A model generated the notes under the pieces. The model was not told where the DNA came from. It worked only from the letters and a program-made list of their open reading frames with translations, and did not search any database. Shown piece after piece: positions 5,860 through 23,866 of a stretch of 64,000 nucleotides of DNA; within the stretch, counting starts at the first letter, position 1; each line of letters starts with the position of its first letter. Source of the DNA: Longimicrobiales bacterium (GTDB lineage Bacteria > Gemmatimonadota > Gemmatimonadetes > Longimicrobiales > Gaopeijiaceae); NCBI GenBank assembly GCA_965248195.1, contig CBDFIQ010000002.1, forward strand, positions 2,880,001 to 2,944,000. The letters run 5' to 3'. The translations under genes and the position numbers were made by a program.

Positions 5860-7362
5860 TCAGCCGTCCACCACGCGAAGAGCGCCGGCCATTTCGAGCA
5901 GGGACTCGACCATCCCTTCGTCACCATAGACGTCGGGCACGCCGGAGACGGGCAGCCCTACGGAACGCCCCGCATCGGCCGTCGTCGGTCCGACACCGAA
6001 GATCTGCACACCGTCGAGGTCCACCCCGGACGAGGCCAGTGACTTCGCCGCCGAAGGGCTGTACAGAAGCACTGCATCCACCCCCCTTTTAAACGCGTCC
6101 AACGCGGCGTCATTCGGCGGCTGGAGCAGCGTGTCATACACATGGAGGGTCTGGACTTCCAAACCCACCCGAGTCAACCCGTGGGAAACCTCCTCGACCG
6201 CGAGCGTCCCGCACGGGAAGAGTACCCGCTCGCCGCTCTTCGCCTCGACCCCGATCGCCTCCACGAGAGCTCTAGCTCGATACTCTCCCGGGATCAGGTC
6301 GGCACGGATCCCCGCACTTTTTAGGCCGGCCGCCGTCTTGGGACCGACCGCGGCGATCCGAGCCGCTCCGAAGAAGCGGGCGTCGAGTCCCTGACGCTCA
6401 AGCTGGCGGACGAGTCCCTCGACCCCGTGCATCGACGTGAACACCATCCAATCGTGGTCGGAGCGCGGCTCCGAGAGCTCCGCCTCGAGATATTCAATAC
6501 GGATCAGCGGTGAGTCGATCACCTCCGCTCCGAGCCCTCGAAGCTTCGAAATGACTTGCCTGCTCGCGAAGGAGGGCCGGGTCACGACCACTCGGCGGCC
6601 TGCCAGAGGCCCGAAGCCCACAGCCGGCTTATTGCCGTCGAGGCGGGCCAACCCGGCGCCCGGACCCACGATCAGCACCATCGGCGCTCGCAGACCCTCG
6701 TCGCGGACGATGCCCGCAATGGTGGCAAGGGTCCCCCGGACCTGACGCTCCCCAGGGAGCGTGCCCTCTTGCACGACCGCAGCGGGGGTCGCAACGCCCC
6801 GACCCGCGGCCATCAGGCCATCCGTCACCTCCTCCAACCGAGCGCCGCCCATGAGCACGACCGCGGTGTCCATTTTCGCCATCGCGGCGTACGGGAGATC
6901 GCGGGCCGGAAGGCCCTTTCCGACGCTCGGCGTCACTATACTCACCGTACTCGCGTGTCCGCGCAGCGTGAGCGGGATGCCGGCCCCAGTAGGTACCCCG
7001 GTCGCGCTGGTCACGCCTGGAACCACCTCACAGGGGATACCAGCCAGATAGCAGGCCTCGATCTCCTCCCACCCCCGGCCATAGATAAAGGGATCGCCGC
7101 CCTTCAGGCGGACCACCTCCTTACCGGCCCTGGCCCGCTCGATCAGGACCTCGTGGATCCGGTCCTGAGCCACCGTGTGCTGACCGGGCGCTTTGAAGAC
7201 ATCGATCAGCTCGGCGCCGGGCCTCGTGAGGGTCAAGAGCTCGGCACCGGCGAGCCGATCAAAAACGACCACATCGGCCCGCCCGAGAAGCTCCTGGCCG
7301 CGAACCGTGATGAGCCCCGCATCTCCGGGCCCCGCACCGACCAGCCACACCCGACCAGTCAA
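5860..7362 (-). CDS. cobA/hemD: Fused uroporphyrinogen-III C-methyltransferase / uroporphyrinogen-III synthase
   Basis: VWLVGAGPGDAGLIT, VVRLKGGDPFIYGRG, VVPGVTS; then HemD-like RVVVTRP, VFTS, AAVGPKTA. TTG start at 7362 overlaps the upstream stop (TTGA). Confidence 0.92.
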   Translation of the reverse strand: MTGRVWLVGAGPGDAGLITVRGQELLGRADVVVFDRLAGAELLTLTRPGAELIDVFKAPGQHTVAQDRIHEVLIERARAGKEVVRLKGGDPFIYGRGWEEIEACYLAGIPCEVVPGVTSATGVPTGAGIPLTLRGHASTVSIVTPSVGKGLPARDLPYAAMAKMDTAVVLMGGARLEEVTDGLMAAGRGVATPAAVVQEGTLPGERQVRGTLATIAGIVRDEGLRAPMVLIVGPGAGLARLDGNKPAVGFGPLAGRRVVVTRPSFASRQVISKLRGLGAEVIDSPLIRIEYLEAELSEPRSDHDWMVFTSMHGVEGLVRQLERQGLDARFFGAARIAAVGPKTAAGLKSAGIRADLIPGEYRARALVEAIGVEAKSGERVLFPCGTLAVEEVSHGLTRVGLEVQTLHVYDTLLQPPNDAALDAFKRGVDAVLLYSPSAAKSLASSGVDLDGVQIFGVGPTTADAGRSVGLPVSGVPDVYGDEGMVESLLEMAGALRVVDG

Positions 7363-8120
7363 GGTACCGAGAGCGTGCCCGAATCGATCGCTTCGAGGGT
7401 GAGCGAGGCCAACTCCGGCCACTCCAATATCGGCGGAAGGATCTTCAGGGTCTGCGGAAGGACCTTGAGGCTCGCCAGCGCGCGGCCGAGCCTTGAGAAC
7501 GTTCGGTGTGCGGTCAGGGCTTTGGCAAGATCGACCAGCACATGTCGTCCGCCTCCAAGGAGCAATGGAACGGCCACGACCGGGCGATCGCCGAGTGAGC
7601 CGGCAACGTCCGAAAGGTATGGAGATTCATCGAGAAAGGCGGTGAGAATCTCCGTACACGGAAAGGTGAGCGCCAGTTCGTCCCGAACCCACCGAGCCGC
7701 ATCCCCGCTCGAACGGACTCGCGTGGTACCATGCCCCACGAGCAGGACGACTGGATTCAGTCCCCGGCGGGTCATGTCCGTCACCGCCTCGCCCACCTTG
7801 GTCGCCAAAACGCGGGGAAATGCTGGAAGTGTGCCGATCGGAGGGGCAATCACGAAAGAACGCGACGGATCCCCCTTCGCCCATTCCTCCGGCAGGCGCC
7901 GTCGTGCGTAGTACCCACCGCTCGCCATGATCGGCACCACCACGGGGTCCTCTCCCCGAGAGCTCCGGGCTGCATCCTCAAAGCTCGGTGTGCCCTTCCA
8001 AAAGGCACACCCGAAGCGAACCCCGGGCCGGGCCTCGCGCAGGGCGTCCGCGAGTTCCAGGAGCGCCCGGTTGGCCGCCGAGCCATCGCCCGCGCCGTGC
8101 GCCGCGAGAATCACGCTCAT
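7359..8120 (-). CDS. Sirohydrochlorin chelatase, CbiX/SirB family (two domains)
   Basis: ILAAHGAG...AN, VVVPIM, second domain LLVGHGT...AFLDESP...VPLLLGGGRHV; siroheme operon context. Confidence 0.82.
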   Translation of the reverse strand: MSVILAAHGAGDGSAANRALLELADALREARPGVRFGCAFWKGTPSFEDAARSSRGEDPVVVPIMASGGYYARRRLPEEWAKGDPSRSFVIAPPIGTLPAFPRVLATKVGEAVTDMTRRGLNPVVLLVGHGTTRVRSSGDAARWVRDELALTFPCTEILTAFLDESPYLSDVAGSLGDRPVVAVPLLLGGGRHVLVDLAKALTAHRTFSRLGRALASLKVLPQTLKILPPILEWPELASLTLEAIDSGTLSVP

Positions 8121-8457: not shown

Positions 8458-9093
8458 CTACCCGGCCGCCGAGCGAGCTCCGCTCACGAGCTCTTCGAGA
8501 GTCCATTCCCCCTCGCCGACCACCCTCATATGGAGCGTCAGCGGCCCCCGCTCGTGACCGACTCTTTCAAACTCGATCGGAACCCGGCCATAGAGGTCTG
8601 CCAAAACGTTTTCGAGTTCAGGGGTGACCTCTTCGAAGGCGGCCTCCGTCGCCGGTACGGCAAGACGATCCGTAAAACGAAAGACCATCTCATGCGTCGC
8701 AAACCGCACGGGGTTGTCCCCGGCGGTATCCTGCTCGAGTGCGGCAGCGGCCTCGAGCACGCTCACGATCGCCTCCCGTAAACGCTCGGCCAGAGTCCCC
8801 GACCCCTCCCTCTTCAATTCGTACTCGAGCCCGATACGGCCACCCGCTTCGTCCGTGCGGAGGTGCCACTCATGAGCGATCAGAAGCACTCCGGGCCCCT
8901 CCGGGACATGCGTGTAATCGTGGACGTCGACGAGCGTCCCCGGGAGACGGTCCTCCTGAATCCAACGGTGAAACACCTCGATCACCCGAGCCCGGTCGAA
9001 AGCCTCCTGGTCCTCGACGAAGACCTTCACCCCCAACCTTTGGGGCTCTGAAAGGACCCGAGCGCCCACCTCTGGCGCCGCCTGAGCGCTCAT
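8458..9093 (-). CDS. Hypothetical protein translationally coupled to the sulfite reductase
   Basis: 211-aa ORF with ATGA overlap to the reductase stop; protein-like sequence (VFHRWIQ...VDVHDYTHVPEGPGVLLIAHE). Confidence 0.75.
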   Translation of the reverse strand: MSAQAAPEVGARVLSEPQRLGVKVFVEDQEAFDRARVIEVFHRWIQEDRLPGTLVDVHDYTHVPEGPGVLLIAHEWHLRTDEAGGRIGLEYELKREGSGTLAERLREAIVSVLEAAAALEQDTAGDNPVRFATHEMVFRFTDRLAVPATEAAFEEVTPELENVLADLYGRVPIEFERVGHERGPLTLHMRVVGEGEWTLEELVSGARSAAG

Positions 9094-11375
9094 ACCGATA
9101 CCGTCTCGGCGGTCCGAACGTGGTACGAGTGGGCGGCCTCGATAAAGAGTTGGGCCTCTTCAATTCGCTGGCGAGCCCGCTCAGGCGTCGCGTCGAACCC
9201 ATTGCTGCCCTCGCCGTGCACGCGGAACAAATAGTTTCCGAACTTTCCTCCCGCGTAGGGATCGTGGAACAGGCCTGGGTCATAGAGATGGGTCTTGAAG
9301 GCGGCAACCACGTCGTCGGGATCTTCGCCGAGCCCCACCTCTTTCTCGCGCACCAGAGTTCTCGCCGCGATCAGCATCGCACGGTAGGCGATATCGGCTG
9401 CGCCCGTGGAATCCCCTTGATCCAGCCGATCCTGAGCGTCGAAGACCTCGCGCTCGCTGGCCTGAAGGCCGAACTCGACCGGCGAGACGATCTGGCCGGC
9501 ACACTCACCGATGCCCATGTCGCCCAGTGTGAACTCTCGCGGATCCCCCCAATTCGAGTAGAAGCTGCGGTCCTCCTCGTAGGTGGGCACTTCGACCAGA
9601 TCCTCTAGAAGGGTCCTGAGGCTGGGCTTACCCACACGGGTGACGAAGGCCTTGAAGCTCTCATCCCCCTCGCGCTCATCAACGTAATACTGGGTGATCC
9701 TGTCCGTGGCGGCCGGGATGTTCCGCCCCGGCACGGCGACAATGGCCAGACCATACGCTCCGGCGTTCTCGGCCCATTGGCCGCCCAGCACGATCTGGAA
9801 GTGCGGCACGTTGTATCCGTTGCGCTTTCGGCTCACGCCCCAGAAACCGATGTCCGCCATATGATGCTGCCCGCAACTGTTGAAGCACCCGCTGATCTTG
9901 ATGCGCAACCCCCGCACCACTTCATCCAACTCCCCGTTGCGCTCCTCCAAGTGCTCCATGAGCGTACGCGCCAGACCACGCGAGGATGCGATGCCGAGCT
10001 TGCACGTGTCCGTCCCGGGGCAAGCCGTGATGTCCGTGAGCGTCTCCGCCCGCGCCTCTGCGAGACCGAGCTCGTCCAGGGCGTCGTGTAGAGCGGCGAG
10101 GTCGCTCTCCCGCACCCAGCGAAAAGCCATGTTTTGCTCGACGGTCATTCGGACCGCGTCGCCGGTAAAACGCCTCGCCACGTCCGCGAGGCCCCGCATC
10201 TGATCGGCCGTGATATCACCGAGAGGCAGGTAGACCATGACCACCTTGTAACCCGGCTGCCTCTGCGGGGCCACGTTGGAAGCCAGCCACGCCGCCAACT
10301 GTGGACTCGGCGTGAGCTTGTTCGGCTCCTCGATTTGCCAGAGCGGCCCATCATGACCCTCGTGGACACCTGGAAGGAAGGCGGTCCACCGGGGATCTTC
10401 GGACAGCCCCGCGCGGTCCTCCAGGACGAGGCGCCGGAACTCCTCGATGCCGAGCTTCGCGACGAGGAACTTCAAGCGGGCGCGGGACCGAACATCTTTT
10501 TCCCCCAGACGAGCGAACACTCGAGAGATCGACTGACAGATCGGAAGCAGCTCCTCTTCGGGCAGAAACTCGTCGAACAGCTCCGCCTGGTGAGGAACGG
10601 CCCCCAGGCCTCCGCCGACATAGAACTCGAATCCACGCCGCTCTACCCCAGCCACCTCCCGAACTCGGGCGATTCCACCGAAGTCGTGCATCTTGACGAG
10701 TCCGCAGGGACGGTCGCCACATCCGGAAAAAGCGGGCTTCACCTTTCTTCCGAACTCCTGAGTATCCGGGTGTCCGAGAAGGAAATCGCTGACGGCGGTG
10801 GCGTAGGGGGTGACATCGAACGTCTGTGTCGTGCAGACTCCCGAGAGGTGGCAAGCGGTAACGTTTCTTACGACGTTGCCGCACGCCTCAAGGGTCGTGA
10901 TCCCCACAGCGCCCAGCCGCCGCATCAGATCCGGGGTTTCTTCGAGGTGCACGAAGTGCAACTGGATGTCTTGCCGCGTCGTTACGTGTAGGATCGCGTC
11001 CGCATACTCCTCGGAGACCTCCGCCAGCGCGTCCATCTGATCGGCACTGACCGAACCGAACGGATTCTTGATACGCACCATGCCCGGCGCATCCCACTGC
11101 GTACCCGGGCCCTTGGTGAGCTCGGCGTTCGGGAAGACCAGTTCCCTCGAGTTAAACCCATCGTGGCGCTGGCCGTTGTCGTACCGCTGGCCGTAAACGC
11201 CCCGGCGTAGGCGCATCTCCGCGAAGACCTCATCAGTCAGTTTTCCCTCGCGCTTCTGCTCTATCTGTCCCTCGAAGGCATCGATCTCACGCGAAAGCTT
11301 GTCGCCGACAAGCGATCCGAGCCTTCCCTTCCACTGCCGTGGCTCCGAGGTCTCAAGCTTACCGTTCGTAGTCAT
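9090..11375 (-). CDS. Siroheme/[4Fe-4S] sulfite (or nitrite) reductase with a C-terminal extension (HEPN-like)
   Basis: RLRRGVYGQR, HVTTRQDIQLH, ACGNVVRNV, ACPGTDTCKLG and SGCFNSCGQH ligand motifs. Upstream Cys leaders favour sulfite as substrate. Confidence 0.9.
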   Translation of the reverse strand: MTTNGKLETSEPRQWKGRLGSLVGDKLSREIDAFEGQIEQKREGKLTDEVFAEMRLRRGVYGQRYDNGQRHDGFNSRELVFPNAELTKGPGTQWDAPGMVRIKNPFGSVSADQMDALAEVSEEYADAILHVTTRQDIQLHFVHLEETPDLMRRLGAVGITTLEACGNVVRNVTACHLSGVCTTQTFDVTPYATAVSDFLLGHPDTQEFGRKVKPAFSGCGDRPCGLVKMHDFGGIARVREVAGVERRGFEFYVGGGLGAVPHQAELFDEFLPEEELLPICQSISRVFARLGEKDVRSRARLKFLVAKLGIEEFRRLVLEDRAGLSEDPRWTAFLPGVHEGHDGPLWQIEEPNKLTPSPQLAAWLASNVAPQRQPGYKVVMVYLPLGDITADQMRGLADVARRFTGDAVRMTVEQNMAFRWVRESDLAALHDALDELGLAEARAETLTDITACPGTDTCKLGIASSRGLARTLMEHLEERNGELDEVVRGLRIKISGCFNSCGQHHMADIGFWGVSRKRNGYNVPHFQIVLGGQWAENAGAYGLAIVAVPGRNIPAATDRITQYYVDEREGDESFKAFVTRVGKPSLRTLLEDLVEVPTYEEDRSFYSNWGDPREFTLGDMGIGECAGQIVSPVEFGLQASEREVFDAQDRLDQGDSTGAADIAYRAMLIAARTLVREKEVGLGEDPDDVVAAFKTHLYDPGLFHDPYAGGKFGNYLFRVHGEGSNGFDATPERARQRIEEAQLFIEAAHSYHVRTAETVSV

Positions 11376-11470
11376 CGGGTTCCCTTTTCCACTCCCATTC
11401 TATTCAAGCATCCAAGTAGCTGGCGCTCCGCTATCGGTTTCAGCATGCTGTTTTCCATAGATTGTGACCC

Positions 11471-11502
11471 AAAAAAAGCCGCGACCCTCGAGGGGCCGCG
11501 GC
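11471..11502 (-). terminator. Intrinsic terminator of the proximal attenuator
   Basis: Minus strand GCCGCGGCCC-CTCGA-GGGTCGCGGC followed by T7. Confidence 0.88.
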
Positions 11503-11526: not shown

Positions 11527-11610
11527 TCAACGACTCGTCGGAACGCGCCCCTCTCTAGGCGTGACCAGGCAACAACAACAGCAACAACACATGGCCGTCA
11601 GTGGAGTCAT
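11527..11610 (-). CDS. Poly-cysteine leader peptide MTPLTAMCCCCCCCLVTPREGRVPTSR (proximal attenuator)
   Basis: ATG 11610 with GAGG upstream; seven consecutive Cys codons TGT TGT TGC TGT TGT TGT TGC (11589-11569); TGA 11529-11527; GAGGGGCGCGTTCCG is complementary to the terminator 5' arm. Confidence 0.85.
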   Translation of the reverse strand: MTPLTAMCCCCCCCLVTPREGRVPTSR

Positions 11611-11702
11611 TTCCCAAGCCTCGAGATTTTCAGGGAACCGCACGTTTCGTATACCTCGTCCTAAGTTTGGGAATTACATACCTGAGTGCCCAAACCGCCG
11701 TG

Positions 11703-11834
11703 TCACTTCTTGTCCGGCGGTGACCTGAGGATAGCCTTCGCGACGTTCTCCGGGGTGTCCGGTATCTTCCGTTGCTGCGTATTGATGTCGTAGTCGTGCT
11801 TCGGCGGCCTGCCGGGCTTCTTCTTGTCTGTCAT
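11703..11834 (-). CDS. Small basic 43-aa protein at the IS end (MTDKKKPGRPPKHDYDINTQQRKIPDTPENVAKAILRSPPDKK)
   Basis: Manual translation; starts 12 nt after the endonuclease stop with AGAAGGG upstream; ends just inside the TIR; AT-hook-like KPGRPPK. Confidence 0.55.
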   Translation of the reverse strand: MTDKKKPGRPPKHDYDINTQQRKIPDTPENVAKAILRSPPDKK

Positions 11835-11846
11835 GTCGTGGCCCTT

Positions 11847-12806
11847 CTATACGGCGTGAATGGTGGCGAATGGTGGTTTGTCCTTCAGCTTCCTCGTCAT
11901 AGACGCCAACGACGGAAGATGCGGCGTGCCCAGAATCTCCAGCCAACACCGCCGGTCTCCGTTCCTTGCACGAATCGGGCCTGCATAAAGCGCGAGTGGT
12001 CCGTTCAAATCCGCTACGATCATGTTGACTTCATCAGGCGTCCAGCCTGGCGAAGTCAGATCGTCTAGTGGCAACACGGTTTGTGTACGAATGTATTCCG
12101 CGAGCAAGTCCTGCACGATCCATATAGTGCGACCGCCCCAGCTATTCGCGGCCTCCGACTTGGCGACAAGTTGCGATGCCATACGCGCCCACACTTGCCG
12201 CGTATTGACGCCGGGAGAGCGAACGGCCTCATTGGCTGGCGTATGCGCGAATAGTACAGCCCTCTTGAACGCCGCCTGTATATCGGTGCCCATCTGCCTA
12301 TTCCCACCGGACGTAGAGCACGTCATGACTTCCACGATGATAGGTGCCGAATCGTCCTCCAAGCCTCGCAATACATAATCAAGACGGTAATTGAACGTCC
12401 CGCCACTTCCTTTCTCTCTTAACGAGATTTCCGACCACACAGACACTGGTTCGCCCGCTTGAAAACCCGCGAGGCGAAACACCCGCTTGGCTAGTTCGTG
12501 ATGTTTGGCCGAAATTCCCTGCGGTCCGAACGCGAATAGGCGGTGAGGGCAGATGGCCCAGACCTTGCCCCGTGCGAAGCGAACCGAGCAAATGCCGCAG
12601 GGCAGCCAGCCGCCCGTCTCCGTGCCCACGGAAGACGAAAATAGATGCCCAAGCGACTCATCCGATGACCGTACTCGCGCCATATCTCGATTTCCGCCAC
12701 CATCACAAACAGACTCGGTGAACGGACATCGGGCCTTCCGGCAAGCATCCCCGTCCATGCCGGACTCTTCGAGCGGCTGTCCATACAACTCTTCCACTAC
12801 AGGCAT
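11847..12806 (-). CDS. Type II restriction endonuclease, NotI-like family
   Basis: N-terminal ELYG...CPF...C...CSV...ICPHR metal-binding Cys pattern; PD-(D/E)xK-like LDYVL...IIVEVMT; overlaps the methyltransferase stop. Confidence 0.75.
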   Translation of the reverse strand: MPVVEELYGQPLEESGMDGDACRKARCPFTESVCDGGGNRDMARVRSSDESLGHLFSSSVGTETGGWLPCGICSVRFARGKVWAICPHRLFAFGPQGISAKHHELAKRVFRLAGFQAGEPVSVWSEISLREKGSGGTFNYRLDYVLRGLEDDSAPIIVEVMTCSTSGGNRQMGTDIQAAFKRAVLFAHTPANEAVRSPGVNTRQVWARMASQLVAKSEAANSWGGRTIWIVQDLLAEYIRTQTVLPLDDLTSPGWTPDEVNMIVADLNGPLALYAGPIRARNGDRRCWLEILGTPHLPSLASMTRKLKDKPPFATIHAV

Positions 12807-13831
12807 AGTGTCTCCGCGACGGCCTTCGCCATTGGTGGCGGGACCGCGTTGGCTACTTGGCGATGCTGGTCAAGGTCACGCACGGAACCCGACCTACCAC
12901 GAATGGGGCCAGTAAAGACGTACGTATCAGGAAAGCCCTGTAGGCGCGCCGCCTCTCGGGGCGTGACGTACCTATCATCGGTCGGATGGTAGGGCGCTTC
13001 CCCGCAGCGCAGCGTAGGCGCGAACGACGAACGGTCGAGGCGGCGAAACTTCGTCGTGTCCTTACGTGTGAGCTTCTTGATAATGTCCGGTGGCGCATCA
13101 GGACACTTCGATAACCATAGCCCTTCCGGCACGAAGGATATGCGCTCCCTGTCTCTCGCTGGCGTTATGTCAATGTGGTTCGGCAGTGCCGGGTTTCCAT
13201 CTCGCAGCACGGGGTCTGGCATCTTGCTCAAGGCGTCGCCTACGGTCCGCCGAACCCCGTTTCCCAACGGGAAGTCGAACTGCACATCTTCACCGGGAAG
13301 GAACACAAGAAAAACGCGCTCACGGTTCTGGGGCAGACCATAGTGCAATGCGTTCAGAGTACGAACATGCATCTTGTAGCCAAGCTCTTGAAACTCCGAC
13401 GCGAGCATATGGACGGCCCGCTGTCCATCCGGCATCATCGCTCGCAAGAAATACGGAACCTGCTCTATCATGACGGCCCTGGGGCGGAAGACATCCGTAA
13501 ATCGCACCATGTCGAAAATCAGCATCCCTCGCGGGTCACTAACTCCGTTGCGCTTCCCGATCTGGCTGAACGGCTGGCATGGGGGACCGCCATGGAGAAG
13601 CCCTAGATCGCCTTTACTCATTCCGAGAAGGTCACGCATTCTGTCAGCATCAACCAACCGGACATCGACGTTCCAAACCGTCTTCTTGCGAGCGTTACGC
13701 CTGAGTGTGGTGGCGCAATGCGGATCAAAATCGATGGAGCAAACCGTTTTGAACCCAGCCTGATCCACACCAATGTCCATGCCGCCCGCCCCCGCGAATA
13801 AGCTCACTGCGCTTCCGCGATTCCGCATCAC
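12797..13831 (-). CDS. DNA (cytosine-5)-methyltransferase
   Basis: Motifs I SLFAGAGG, IV GGPPCQPFS, VI IEQV, VIII QNRERVF, IX TPREAARLQGFPD, X QVANAVPP. Confidence 0.93.
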   Translation of the reverse strand: MMRNRGSAVSLFAGAGGMDIGVDQAGFKTVCSIDFDPHCATTLRRNARKKTVWNVDVRLVDADRMRDLLGMSKGDLGLLHGGPPCQPFSQIGKRNGVSDPRGMLIFDMVRFTDVFRPRAVMIEQVPYFLRAMMPDGQRAVHMLASEFQELGYKMHVRTLNALHYGLPQNRERVFLVFLPGEDVQFDFPLGNGVRRTVGDALSKMPDPVLRDGNPALPNHIDITPARDRERISFVPEGLWLSKCPDAPPDIIKKLTRKDTTKFRRLDRSSFAPTLRCGEAPYHPTDDRYVTPREAARLQGFPDTYVFTGPIRGRSGSVRDLDQHRQVANAVPPPMAKAVAETLCL

Positions 13832-14784
13832 GCGACCAGTTCCCGGTAGCGGAGCCGTCCGCCGACCAGCCCACGCGCCACCGCGCCCATCTGGTCCAGC
13901 GTGTCTAGCGGTCGGTCGTTGAAGCGTCCGGCGAACTCCGCGACATAACGGTCCAGATGCTTCGGGCTCATGTGGTGATAGGTGCCGTAGTAGCCGCGCT
14001 TGAGGAGCGCCCAGAACGATTCCACGCCGTTCGTGTGGGCTTGGCCGTTCACGTACTCCCTGACGCTGTGGCGTACCGTAGCGTGCTCGTAGTCGCGGGA
14101 GAGCCCACCGTAGCCGCCATGGTCGTCCGTGTAGACGGTGGACCCGGCCTCGGCGTGGTCGGCAACGAACCCCGTCAGCGTCTCACCGTCTACACGATCC
14201 ACCACGCGAGCGGCTACCTGCTTCGTCTCGCGATTCTTCGCGCCAGCCACGGCGGTCTTGCCAACCGGCCCACGGCCAGCCCGTAGCTTCTTGCTCCCGT
14301 GCTTGTTCCGCTCCTTGCCGCCTATGTACGTCTCATCGACCTCGACGGGACCGGAGAACGGGGCCGGGGCGGTGCGCCACGTCTGGCGGATCCGGTGCGC
14401 CAGATGCCAAGCGGTCTTCTGCGTCACACCCAGATCACGGTGCAGCTTCATGCTGCTGGCTCCCTTAATGCCGGTCGTGAGGATGTAGATCGCGACGGCC
14501 CACACCTGATAGCCGAGCTTCGTGTCTTCCATCGCCGTGCCGACCCGTACGCTAAACCGCTTGCGGCACGACCGGCAACGGTAGGGCATCGTCGGGTGCT
14601 TCGCGCCCATTTGCACGTTATCCGACGCGCAATGCGGGCAGACCGGAGAGCCGCCCCAGCGCTGTTCTGCGAACCACCCTTCGGCAGCTTCGTCGCTCGG
14701 GAATATCCGCATCAACTCCACCCATGACAGCCCTTCGCGCTCCGCCCGTCCGGGGCCGCCGTTGTACTTGCTGTTGCCGCTCAT
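13828..14784 (-). CDS. IS1595-family transposase
   Basis: Zn-ribbon CPHC...YRCRSC, HTH SSMKLHRDLGVTQKTAW, DDE core VEVDETYIGG...VYTDD...NGVESFW. Confidence 0.95.
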   Translation of the reverse strand: MSGNSKYNGGPGRAEREGLSWVELMRIFPSDEAAEGWFAEQRWGGSPVCPHCASDNVQMGAKHPTMPYRCRSCRKRFSVRVGTAMEDTKLGYQVWAVAIYILTTGIKGASSMKLHRDLGVTQKTAWHLAHRIRQTWRTAPAPFSGPVEVDETYIGGKERNKHGSKKLRAGRGPVGKTAVAGAKNRETKQVAARVVDRVDGETLTGFVADHAEAGSTVYTDDHGGYGGLSRDYEHATVRHSVREYVNGQAHTNGVESFWALLKRGYYGTYHHMSPKHLDRYVAEFAGRFNDRPLDTLDQMGAVARGLVGGRLRYRELVA

Positions 14785-14921
14785 CTCTATGCTCCGCAAT
14801 GTGTTATCCTATATTGGTAATATAGTACCCATCACGGAGGGTCGCAAGGGGTTTGGGTACTCAGGTATGTAATCCCCCTAAGTTTCGGGTCTTTCCATTC
14901 CCGGTCTCACCCGGTTCGAAC

Positions 14922-14953
14922 AAAAAAGGCCCTCGGGAAAACCCGGCGGCCTC
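14922..14953 (-). terminator. Second, weaker terminator-like hairpin downstream of the distal attenuator
   Basis: Minus strand GAGGCCGCCGGG-TTTT-CCCGAGGGCC then T6; stem has a 2-nt internal mismatch. Confidence 0.6.
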
Positions 14954-14975
14954 TTGAACTGGAATCCAAACCCAC

Positions 14976-15003
14976 AAAAAAGCCACCGAATGTCTCCGGT
15001 GGC
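14976..15003 (-). terminator. Intrinsic terminator of the distal attenuator
   Basis: Minus strand GCCACCGGA-GACA-TTCGGTGGC then T6. Confidence 0.85.
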
Positions 15004-15031
15004 GTTTCAGGGAACCTCGTCGCGTGTATGC

Positions 15032-15127
15032 CTATACGACGTCTCCCCGATACCCCACCGGGCTCGGACAAGAACATCGGCAACAACAACTCTCGAGCAT
15101 CATGACCCGCATCCTTTTACAACACAT
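15032..15127 (-). CDS. Cys-rich leader peptide MCCKRMRVMMLESCCCRCSCPSPVGYRGDVV (distal attenuator; alternative starts 15112 or 15103)
   Basis: 7 Cys in 31 codons (5 Cys if it starts at 15103, which has AAGGA upstream); TAG 15034-15032; CCGGTGG...GGGGAGAC is complementary to GTTCCCTGAAACGCCACCGG, which overlaps the terminator. Confidence 0.78.
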   Translation of the reverse strand: MCCKRMRVMMLESCCCRCSCPSPVGYRGDVV

Positions 15128-15157
15128 CCGCTTTCTCACACATCCTTCTTAGAAACA

Positions 15158-15185
15158 ACGCTAACCGCCCGAAGTCCCCTGTCAA
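15158..15185 (-). promoter_or_regulatory. Sigma70-like promoter for the distal leader
   Basis: TTGACA (15185-15180), 16-bp spacer, TAGCGT (15163-15158). Confidence 0.6.
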
Positions 15186-15531: not shown

Positions 15532-16950
15532 ATGTCCAACGCGGCCCGGACATCAGGAAAACCGTTCGACCGCTCGATCGTCGAGGGCCCGATCCCGAGT
15601 GTGGTGTGGAAAATCGCCTGGCCGACGATGCTTCAGAACGTGTTGGGCGGAGTCCAGGGCATCGTGGACCACGCCATGGTAGGACACTTCGTTGGCTACA
15701 CCGGGAACGCCGCCATCGGAGTCGCATGGCAAATCTTCCTCGTGGTGATCGTGTTCATCAGCTCTGTCTTCACCGGTATGGGGGTGCTGGTCGCGCGCTT
15801 CGTGGGGGCTCGGGAGCCGGACAAGGTGAACCGGACCGTCTATCAGGCGTTCCTCACCGCCGCCGTCATGTCCATCGCGATCCTGGCGCCGCTGGGATAC
15901 GTCCTGTCGCCATCGCTTCTCGGACTGGTTAACGCCGCCCCCGAGGTGCAAGCGGAGGCCCTCCAGTACCTCCGCATCATGTTCATGTTCAGCTTCGGCA
16001 TGATCGTCTACTTCATGATCGGAGGGGCCCTCAGATCCGCGGGGGACGCACGCACGCCGCTCCGTCTCGGCATCATGCTCACCGCGCTCAACATCACGCT
16101 GAACGTCATTCTCATTCCGGGGTTGGGACCGATCCCGGCATTTGGGACCACCGGCGCGGCCATGGGCACCGTCATCGCGGGAGCCCTGATGGCGGTGGTC
16201 TACGTCTACTTTCTTTTTTCCGGAAAATGGGTCGTGGCCTTTCGCCGCGGCATGAACTGGAGGCCGGACTTCGGGATCATCCGGGAGCTGTTCCGCTTCG
16301 GGCTTCCGACAGGCCTGCAAGGCGTGGCGATGAACGCCGGAGGAGTCATGCTCCTCGCATACATCGGGTCTCTACCCCAGAGCGGTGAAGCCCAGGCCGC
16401 CTACGTGATCAGCTATACCCAACTCTTTTCGCTGATCACCTGGACATCGGCGGGCCTATTGGGTGCAACTGCCGCGGTCTCCGGACAGAACCTGGGTGCC
16501 GGACGACCGGAACGCACGATCGAGGCGGTTCACGTGGCCTCGTGGATCGGGCTGGGGGTGGCCGTGACCGTTGGCGTGCTCTTCCTCACGATACCGCGCG
16601 TCCTCTTGGGGTTCTTTGGAGTGGAAGATCCGCTTGTCACCCAAATGGCCGTCCGTCTGCTCTCATTCTTGAGCGTGTCAGGCCTTTTCATTACCGTCGC
16701 GCTCGCCTACACCGGCGGGCTCCAGGGAACGGGGGATACGCGGAGTCCATTTTACATCTCACTGGTCTCGCAGCTCATCATCCCGATCGGCATCTGCGCC
16801 ATCCTTCAGGCAACCGGGAATCTCCAGGCAACCTACATATGGCTTGCCATCCTGATCGGGCACATGACCCGATGCGCCCTCAGCGTCATCCGTTTCCGGC
16901 AGGGCAAGTGGCGTGACATCAAAGTGAGCATCGAGCCGGTGCGGTCGTAG
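15532..16950 (+). CDS. MATE family efflux transporter
   Basis: KIAWPTML...VDHAMVG, GALRSAGDARTPL, GLQGTGDTRSP; about 12 TM segments. Confidence 0.92.
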   Translation: MSNAARTSGKPFDRSIVEGPIPSVVWKIAWPTMLQNVLGGVQGIVDHAMVGHFVGYTGNAAIGVAWQIFLVVIVFISSVFTGMGVLVARFVGAREPDKVNRTVYQAFLTAAVMSIAILAPLGYVLSPSLLGLVNAAPEVQAEALQYLRIMFMFSFGMIVYFMIGGALRSAGDARTPLRLGIMLTALNITLNVILIPGLGPIPAFGTTGAAMGTVIAGALMAVVYVYFLFSGKWVVAFRRGMNWRPDFGIIRELFRFGLPTGLQGVAMNAGGVMLLAYIGSLPQSGEAQAAYVISYTQLFSLITWTSAGLLGATAAVSGQNLGAGRPERTIEAVHVASWIGLGVAVTVGVLFLTIPRVLLGFFGVEDPLVTQMAVRLLSFLSVSGLFITVALAYTGGLQGTGDTRSPFYISLVSQLIIPIGICAILQATGNLQATYIWLAILIGHMTRCALSVIRFRQGKWRDIKVSIEPVRS

Positions 16951-23694: not shown

Positions 23695-23866
23695 ATGCGG
23701 GCGCGCAGGTCTACTGACTTAGGGCGGCACTCCCTCGCCTTCCCAGGGCCTGTCGGCTCCAGTGGCATTCATGAGGGGGCCTGTCCGGCGCAAAAACGCG
23801 CCGAGCCCAACACAGTGGCGGGGCCGTGCCGGATTGTCACCGGCTTCCGAGATGCCTCGCCCGCAT
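23695..23866 (-). ncRNA. Cobalamin riboswitch
   Basis: Minus strand GGAAGCCGGTGACAATCCGGCACGGCCCCGCCACTGT...GCCACTG...TGGGAAGGC...AAGTCAGTAGACCTGC; closing stem ATGCGGGCG/CGCCCGCAT. Confidence 0.9.

What the first reader, a model, noticed from the sequence alone, without database searches (positions are those of the whole stretch)
14922..15185. Second Cys-rich attenuator with promoter and double terminator
Seen: TTGACA-16-TAGCGT promoter, then leader MCCKRMRVMMLESCCCRCSCPSPVGYRGDVV. Antiterminator segment 15061-15041 is complementary to 15015-14996. Terminator at 15003-14976 and a second hairpin + T6 at 14953-14922. The sequence differs from the proximal leader, so it is not a recent copy. 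It also holds four Met codons, so it may respond to Met as well (inference).
Basis: partly seen in the sequence, partly recalled or inferred. Interest (0 to 1): 0.82.

Follow-up and report, generated by a model that had tools for sequence, protein, structure and literature searches.

The report
Cysteine attenuator with two linked terminators
A tiny cysteine-codon-rich reading frame followed by two transcription stop signals sits in front of the sulfur-assimilation genes of a group of uncultured bacteria; it most likely lets one stalled ribosome open both stops when cysteine runs short, a variant of textbook attenuation, and in this genome a mobile element has landed right behind it.

Summary
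Promoter, Cys-codon leader, antiterminator and both terminators are at the stated places and are kept in 25 distinct copies from a group of Longimicrobiales (Gemmatimonadota) relatives; 16 of the 25 were found with a Cys-codon pattern. The conserved start is 15103, not 15127, so Met sensing is unsupported. cysH follows in 22 of 25 copies, usually then sulfite reductase. Folding gives a his-operon-type six-segment switch. Stalling at the Cys codons blocks terminator 1, and its freed 3' arm pairs with the 5' arm of terminator 2 and blocks that too (24 of 25). This relay shows no compensatory change, and one constrained folding argues against it. A second Cys leader with a third terminator follows in 16 of 25; here an IS1595 element carrying restriction-modification genes separates the two leaders. 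No expression data. The scan noted Cys attenuators, tandem ones and relay-coupled terminators before on other DNA. A Cys transcription attenuator is predicted in print for cysS (PMC8632094). Verdict: real, new variant of a known kind, interest 0.5.

The parts
15158..15185 (-). sigma70-type promoter P1, TTGACA-16-TAGCGT; start predicted near 15151
   Evidence: sequence; both hexamers and the spacer length kept in 25 of 25 copies; function inferred
15112..15116 (-). Shine-Dalgarno-like AAGGA, 8 nt before the ATG at 15103
   Evidence: sequence
15032..15103 (-). leader ORF L1, conserved form MMLESCCCRCSCPSPVGYRGDVV (23 aa, 5 Cys; 5 or 6 in relatives). Cys codons start at 15088, 15085, 15082, 15076, 15070. 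The 8-codon extension to 15127 is not conserved
   Evidence: Cys codons are TGT in 129 of 144 across the 25 copies, against 1209 of 3848 in 925 long ORFs of the genome
15029..15088 (-). segments 1:2, anti-antiterminator hairpin (Cys codons paired with the 3' part of the antiterminator strand), about -25 kcal/mol
   Evidence: at least 8 bp in 25 of 25 copies when this fragment is folded alone
14996..15061 (-). segments 2:3, antiterminator: 15061-15037 paired with 15022-14996, which includes T1's 5' arm; about 18 bp
   Evidence: the core 7 bp are paired in 25 of 25; one outer pair changes on both sides in 2 copies
14976..15003 (-). terminator T1 (segments 3:4): 9-bp hairpin plus U6
   Evidence: passes the hairpin plus U test in 24 of 25 copies
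14943..14989 (-). segments 4:5, relay helix: T1 3' arm and U tract (14989-14975) paired with T2 5' arm and the purines before it (14956-14943)
   Evidence: -21.6 kcal/mol against -15.5 for T2; forms in 24 of 25 at Cys stall; no two-sided change; inferred
14922..14951 (-). terminator T2 (segments 5:6): interrupted 8-bp hairpin plus U6
   Evidence: passes the hairpin plus U test in 25 of 25 copies; one pair at the base changes on both sides in 4 copies
11669..14877 (-). IS1595-family element, 28-bp inverted ends (26 of 28 identical), 8-bp target duplication at 14878-14885 and 11661-11668; inserted between T2 and the second leader
   Evidence: absent from the 8 other genus loci
13828..14799 (-). 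IS1595 transposase; its own promoter-like site at 14847-14819
   Evidence: NF033547, 188 bits over a cut-off of 75
11847..13831 (-). IS cargo: C5 DNA methyltransferase (12797-13831) and probable type II restriction enzyme (11847-12806)
   Evidence: TIGR00675; PADLOC REase_II E 3e-7
11527..11610 (-). second leader L2, MTPLTAMCCCCCCCLVTPREGRVPTSR; a possible earlier in-frame GTG at 11643
   Evidence: L2 with T3 intact in 16 of 25 loci counting the window
11471..11502 (-). terminator T3 plus U7; its antiterminator comes from the end of L2
5860..11375 (-). regulated operon: sulfite/nitrite reductase hemoprotein (9090-11375), unknown 211-aa protein (8458-9093), CbiX chelatase (7359-8120), CobA-HemD fusion (5860-7422)
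   Evidence: in relatives cysH (PF01507) precedes the reductase

Best explanation
A ribosome-mediated transcription attenuator that senses Cys-tRNA and is built like the six-segment his attenuator, except that both the middle hairpin (T1) and the last hairpin (T2) look like intrinsic terminators. Cys plentiful: the ribosome reaches the stop at 15032 and covers segment 2, T1 forms, and polymerases that leak through meet T2. Cys scarce: the ribosome stalls on the UGU run (C6-C8, perhaps C10), segment 2 captures T1's 5' arm, and T1's freed 3' arm and U tract capture T2's 5' arm as it emerges, so both stops open. No ribosome: 1:2 forms and T1 terminates. In the ancestral layout the transcript then meets a second Cys leader with terminator T3 before cysH and sulfite reductase. 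In this genome it first runs into an IS1595 element. Shown: sequence, conservation, gene context, insertion. Computed: the folds. Inferred: transcription, translation, termination and the Cys response. Odds: Cys attenuation at T1 about 0.9; T2 switched by the relay about 0.6.
For: Conservation of promoter, start, antiterminator, T1 and T2 in 25 distinct copies. cysH lies downstream in 22 of 25 (two lack it, one locus is too short). Folding with a 12-nt footprint: at C8, T1 forms in 1 of 25, the relay in 24 of 25 when T2's 5' arm emerges, and T2 in 3 of 25; at the stop codon T1 forms in 25 of 25 and T2 in 20 of 25; footprints of 9 and 15 give the same pattern. With the antiterminator core or T1 held: relay 22 of 25, T2 blocked 20 of 25, T2 formed behind T1 24 of 25 (the miss, L135, had its T2 end mis-parsed). 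Controls: T2 with randomised pair orientation and shuffled spacer was blocked in 11 of 300; 0 of 5000 genomic 17-mers pair as well with segment 4. T2's 5' arm has 5 parsimony changes in 9 nt, all A>G or C>U that keep a wobble pair with T1's 3' arm; T2's 3' arm has 18. The fifth base of T2's 5' arm faces a non-pairing base in T2 in 19 of 25 yet is always A or G. In L025 and L127 cysH starts about 25 nt after T2, leaving no room for another promoter, so T2 must be passed. A single Cys leader with one terminator precedes cysH in 14 of 14 cysH-first loci of other genera of the family (lax filter).
Against: No pair of the relay, of T1 or of the antiterminator core changes on both sides, and the shuffle control is not exceeded. 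A>G and C>U are the commonest mutations, so wobble-keeping changes are weak support. RNAalifold's consensus chose antiterminator plus T2, not the relay. When the whole fold of the T1 stage was held, including a 5-bp extension onto T1's 3' arm, T2 formed with 7 or more bp in 8 of 9 genomes, the window included. The relay is weak in L028 and L133, T2 wins at equilibrium in L024, and L128 has lost part of the antiterminator target. With the ribosome at the stop, the relay can displace T1 before T2 is complete in 10 of 25, so the second lock may be partial. Naked RNA of the window itself folds into the antiterminator: T1 is blocked in 5 of 25 and formed in 19. 16 of the 25 copies were found with a Cys-codon pattern, so their leader codons are conserved by construction, and the copies are kin. 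The window genome has no cysH (91.8% complete). There is no expression evidence.
Confidence: 0.6

Rival explanations
1. Ordinary four-segment Cys attenuator at T1. T2 is a leaky, unregulated hairpin, perhaps an old duplicate of T1, that only lowers the output.
For: T2's 5' arm repeats T1's 5' arm, as a duplication would give. No two-sided change in the relay. T2 forms when the extended antiterminator is held and in the consensus fold. Other genera manage with one terminator.
Against: T2 with its U tract is kept in 25 of 25 while L2-T3 changes state about 5 times on the tree. Its 5' arm is far more constrained than its 3' arm (5 against 18 changes). The relay is 4-12 kcal/mol more stable than T2 in 9 of 9 genomes.
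Confidence: 0.25
2. True his-type attenuator: T1 works mainly as the structural middle hairpin (C:D), its U run serves to pair with segment 5, and T2 is the only effective terminator.
For: The topology matches the A:B, B:C, D:E, E:F scheme of PMC4046918 (passages). T1's U run does pair with the purines before T2. T1 is weakened in L028.
Against: T1 is an uninterrupted 9-bp GC-rich stem directly followed by U6, and is the hairpin the scanner flags. The U run is kept where the purines pair poorly (L027 group).
Confidence: 0.1
3. The leader starts at 15127 and senses Met as well as Cys.
For: The window frame is open from 15127 with four ATG and two extra Cys codons. Leaders of other genera carry Met next to Cys; one has 8 Met (L168).
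Against: The upstream ATGs occur in 7 and 3 of 25, an upstream in-frame stop in 7 of 25 and an internal Met in 1 of 25. A ribosome at codons 1-2 of the short ORF would not free segment 2 from segment 1 (inference).
Confidence: 0.05
4. In this genome the element is a relic or has been rewired: the IS promoter feeds L2 and the reductase operon, and L1-T1-T2 now gates only read-through into the transposase and restriction-modification genes. This can hold together with the main mechanism.
For: IS inserted 43 nt after T2's U run. Promoter-like site inside the IS end, and no minus-strand terminator flagged in the IS. cysH missing from the genome.
Against: All segments of L1-T1-T2 are intact in the window and fold like the relatives. 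The promoter-like count equals chance (1 found, 1.4 in shuffles). Cysteine synthase and ATP sulfurylase are present.
Confidence: 0.3

Closest known systems
Salmonella his attenuator (PMC4046918, passages)
   Same: Leader with a run of cognate codons; A:B and E:F against B:C and D:E, so stalling is relayed through a middle pair to the last hairpin; untranslated RNA terminates.
   Different: Senses Cys. The middle hairpin here has its own U6 tract, so two stops are gated; the passages name only E:F as the his terminator. A second leader follows.
uORFC-8-2 motif before cysS in Rhodobacterales (PMC8632094, passages)
   Same: Predicted Cys-codon uORF with an intrinsic terminator, read through on stalling.
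   Different: Two Cys codons, mostly UGC; one terminator; controls cysteinyl-tRNA synthetase; Alphaproteobacteria; a prediction only.
Mycobacterial polycysteine sORFs such as Ms5788A (10.1101/834739, passages; predicted in PMC1262725, passages)
   Same: Cys-codon run sensed by the ribosome upstream of cysteine genes; tested experimentally.
   Different: Leaderless, act on translation by hiding the Shine-Dalgarno, no intrinsic terminator. Here a leadered ORF and terminators.
Tandem riboswitches with separate terminators (PMC9481103, passages)
   Same: Two sensing steps in series give a steeper response; the L1 plus L2 pair should behave alike (inference).
   Different: The sensor here is the ribosome; T1 and T2 share one sensor.
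rimP leader (PMC2965389, passage) and tet(M) leader (10.1101/2021.03.24.436905, passages)
   Same: Leaders with two predicted terminators.
   Different: No amino-acid codon run shown to control them; the tet(M) peptide gave no toeprint in that paper; no relay described in the passages read.

Membership tests
Classical leader-peptide transcription attenuator | short translated leader ORF with a ribosome-binding site | tested here: met
   start kept in 25 of 25, AAGGA 8 nt upstream; translation itself not shown
Classical leader-peptide transcription attenuator | run of codons for the pathway's end product | tested here: met
   5-6 Cys in 23 codons, 129 of 144 TGT; 9 of the 25 copies found without a Cys pattern
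Classical leader-peptide transcription attenuator | intrinsic terminator after the leader | tested here: met
   T1 in 24 of 25, T2 in 25 of 25
Classical leader-peptide transcription attenuator | mutually exclusive antiterminator freed by stalling at the regulatory codons | tested here: met
   T1 formed in 1 of 25 at C8 and in 25 of 25 at the stop; computed
Classical leader-peptide transcription attenuator | anti-antiterminator giving termination without translation | tested here: inconclusive
   1:2 in 25 of 25 folded alone; in whole naked RNA T1 forms in 19 of 25, not in the window
Classical leader-peptide transcription attenuator | downstream operon makes the sensed amino acid | tested here: met
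   cysH in 22 of 25, then sulfite reductase; interrupted by an IS in the window
Classical leader-peptide transcription attenuator | amino-acid-dependent termination in vivo | not testable with these tools
   only contigs were available
his-type six-segment attenuator | D:E helix that blocks the last hairpin when B:C forms | tested here: inconclusive
   forms in 24 of 25 and 22 of 25; no two-sided change; lost under one constraint
Mycobacterial polycysteine leaderless sORF attenuators | leaderless ORF | tested here: not met
   predicted start of transcription lies 58-63 nt before the first Cys codon, that is 43-48 nt before the start codon
Mycobacterial polycysteine leaderless sORF attenuators | control by hiding the downstream Shine-Dalgarno, no intrinsic terminator | tested here: not met
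   two intrinsic terminators; Shine-Dalgarno hiding at cysH was not modelled
uORFC-8-2 motif | upstream of cysS in Rhodobacterales | tested here: not met
   upstream of cysH and reductase in Longimicrobiales
Riboswitch or T-box (SAM, T-box) | match to an Rfam model | tested here: not met
   only a cobalamin riboswitch at 23709-23848 in the window

The most novel reading that the evidence does not exclude
One ribosome gates two intrinsic terminators through a strand-swap relay between identical 5' arms, and a second Cys leader adds a third checkpoint, giving a tight and steep, protein-free cysteine switch. In this genome the IS1595 insertion puts a transposase and a restriction-modification system under cysteine-starvation control.
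Probability: 0.4. Interest if true: 0.68.

Novelty: new variant of a known kind. Interest (0 to 1): 0.5.

Why it matters
In the papers I could search, cysteine attenuation is tested only as a translational switch in mycobacteria, and terminator-based Cys attenuation is only predicted. This leader is compact, uses sigma70-type signals and has natural variants with and without the second leader, so it can be tested directly in E. coli or in vitro. If the relay holds, it shows how a single sensor can lower leak without lowering the ON state, which is also useful for synthetic switches. It extends leader-peptide attenuation to Gemmatimonadota, where one search found no paper. The logic itself is textbook, and the scan has met Cys attenuators in several other phyla.

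Tried and rejected
Met sensing and starts at 15127 or 15112: not conserved. Riboswitch or T-box: no Rfam match. T1/T2 arms as a genome-wide repeat: only 3 palindromic loci share T1's arms and 2 match the T2 pattern. Covariation tests for the relay, T1 and the T2 base were uninformative. A pairing of the Cys codons with T1's 3' arm, suggested, drops to 0 bp once T2's 5' arm exists in 25 of 25, so I rejected it as a fail-safe. Wider homologues of L1: covariance model R1 matched 2 of 151 genomes of the order, both of this genus (strict filters). Of 76 hits of the degenerate leader pattern in genome contigs, 10 were Gemmatimonadota or Longimicrobiales records with this leader; the other 66 look like chance frames, 2 with a stray hairpin. 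Expression: no raw reads. Of 4 runs laid, one RNA run has a 200-nt contig over 14909-15084 with 15 differences and the other has none there; contigs cannot show ends or level, so this is not counted. L2's switch: with T3 complete, T3 forms at every ribosome position but C7; its antiterminator forms only before T3's 3' arm is made, so L2 would have to work kinetically; unresolved. NCBIfam has no model for either leader peptide. The restriction-like protein has no Pfam or PDB match. A sequence look-up in the scan's notes found nothing for this DNA. Literature searches for a two-terminator relay, for tandem amino-acid attenuators or for Cys attenuation of sulfite reductase found no description; most subscription journals are not in the library and supplements were not read.

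Full report
Observation. It exceeds chance. 9 of 20,000 shuffles gave a comparable Cys-rich ORF, and among 31 short Cys-run ORFs of the genome only this leader (L1) and the proximal one (L2, 11610-11527) precede a hairpin with 6-7 T. The consensus scanner missed the promoter and T2, and Rfam has no match here.

Context. Downstream lie an IS1595 transposase, a C5 methyltransferase and a probable type II restriction enzyme, then L2 with terminator T3, then a sulfite/nitrite reductase, an unknown protein, CbiX and a CobA-HemD fusion. The three mobile genes sit in a 3.2-kb element (11669-14877) with 28-bp inverted ends and an 8-bp target duplication, absent from the 8 other genus loci. Without it, L1-T1-T2-L2-T3 is one continuous leader. 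Records with this leader are titled Longimicrobiales or Gemmatimonadota. The window genome has ATP sulfurylase and cysteine synthase but no cysH or cysD match (91.8% complete).

Conservation. L1 is in 9 of 12 genomes of the genus. With one further genome record and 15 distinct metagenome loci there are 25 distinct copies. 16 of them were found with a Cys-codon pattern, so only features outside that pattern count for them. Promoter hexamers and spacer length are kept in 25 of 25. The start equivalent to 15103 is kept in 25 of 25; the upstream ATGs are in 7 and 3 of 25, and an internal Met in 1 of 25. Met sensing is therefore unsupported. Cys codons are TGT in 129 of 144, against 31% (1209 of 3848) in long ORFs of the genome; PMC4046918 (passages) reports that NNU codons are mostly read more slowly than NNC. 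T1 passes the terminator test in 24 of 25 and T2 in 25 of 25. cysH follows in 22 of 25. L2-T3 is intact in 16 of 25 and changes state at least 5 times on a small tree. L1 was not found outside the genus among 151 genomes of the order. Yet 14 of 14 cysH-first loci of other genera have a Cys-containing short ORF and exactly one terminator (lax filter; for L162 the script picked the wrong ORF, the real one is seen). So Cys attenuation looks family-wide, and the double terminator looks special to this group.

Mechanism. Folding with the ribosome placed codon by codon gives six segments. The Cys codons pair with the antiterminator strand (1:2, 25 of 25 folded alone). With the ribosome at C7 or C8, T1 forms in 1 of 25; at the stop codon in 25 of 25; footprints of 9 and 15 nt agree, and C10 depends on the footprint. 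T2's 5' arm repeats T1's 5' arm, so T1's freed 3' arm and U tract can take it. This relay helix is -21.6 kcal/mol against -15.5 for T2 in the window. It forms in 24 of 25 copies as T2's 5' arm emerges, T2 then forms in 3 of 25, and with the ribosome at the stop T2 forms in 20 of 25. A randomised T2 is blocked in 11 of 300 trials. T2's 5' arm shows 5 changes, all keeping a wobble pair with T1's 3' arm, against 18 in its 3' arm. In L025 and L127 cysH begins about 25 nt after T2, so T2 must be passed. Sequence, conservation and context are shown; folds are computed; transcription, translation and the Cys response are inferred.

Against. No relay, T1 or core antiterminator pair changes on both sides. 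The consensus fold prefers antiterminator plus T2. Holding a 5-bp extension of the antiterminator onto T1's 3' arm lets T2 form in 8 of 9 genomes. L028, L133, L024 and L128 depart from the model. The relay can invade T1 in the OFF state in 10 of 25. Naked window RNA folds ON at equilibrium. L2's switch works only kinetically in the model. The copies are kin. No raw RNA reads were available.

Comparison. The topology is that of the Salmonella his attenuator, where B:C and D:E replace E:F (PMC4046918, passages); here the middle hairpin also carries a U6 tract. A Cys-codon uORF with a terminator is predicted for cysS of Rhodobacterales (PMC8632094, passages). The tested Cys attenuators are leaderless and translational (10.1101/834739, passages; PMC1262725, passages; cited again in PMC13236596, passages). 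Serial sensors sharpen responses in tandem riboswitches (PMC9481103, passages). Two terminators in one leader are mentioned for rimP (PMC2965389) and tet(M) (10.1101/2021.03.24.436905), without a relay in the passages read. Nine searches found no description of this element or of a two-terminator relay; subscription journals are mostly missing and supplements were not read. The scan's own unchecked notes list Cys attenuators in several phyla, two tandem cases and relay-coupled terminators in spirochaetes; I did not test those, and my relay reading was stated before I saw them.

Verdict. The element works like a classical leader-peptide attenuator and meets the features that can be tested by computation, with one inconclusive. 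It is a new variant: Cys-sensing, his-type, probably gating two terminators with one ribosome, usually in tandem with a second Cys leader, and here split from it by an IS. Confidence is about 0.9 for Cys attenuation and 0.6 for the relay. Interest 0.5.

Noticed in passing
window 11669-14877: IS1595-family element with passenger C5 methyltransferase, probable restriction enzyme and a 43-aa basic ORF (11834-11703); single copy in the genome. A run from another study holds the cargo at 97-99% identity and also a contig that joins 11668 to 14972, so forms without the element exist there.
   Followed up: partly
window 11376-11470; L023: cysH is missing between T3 and the reductase in the window and in L023, and no PF01507 match exists in the window genome although ATP sulfurylase is present: the organism may assimilate sulfite rather than sulfate.
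   Followed up: partly
L069 and L114 (one genome record): Two identical copies of promoter-L1-T1-T2-L2-T3-cysH about 26 kb apart in new surroundings, neither followed by an intact reductase gene in the DNA held.
   Followed up: no
L030, L128, L129: Partly deleted second leader: the Cys run is kept, T3 is gone, and the frame runs to just before cysH. L128 also lacks 22 nt of L1's antiterminator target.
   Followed up: no
L168, 185-37 nt before the cysH match: Leader MGSGCMMVMCMPPMACCMAIRPADVVERTM with 8 Met and 4 Cys before a terminator, same TAGCGT -10; a better candidate for joint Met/Cys sensing than the finding.
   Followed up: no
L142-L152, L157, L162: Single Cys-leader attenuators of at least three sequence types before cysH in other genera of the family; by eye L1 resembles the L144/L147/L148 type and L2 the L142/L145 type.
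   Followed up: partly
window 23709-23848 (-): Cobalamin riboswitch before a probable TonB-dependent receptor gene at 23668-21470 (the receptor label is my reading of the sequence).
   Followed up: no
window 8458-9093 (-): 211-aa protein overlapping the reductase stop, with no NCBIfam or Pfam match.
   Followed up: no
window 15532-16950 (+): MATE transporter divergent from the promoter, conserved in place in the 8 other genus loci.
   Followed up: no
G000 C2:3351752-3351726 (-): Tiny ORF MCCCCHGR elsewhere in the genome, without a terminator in the scan.
   Followed up: no
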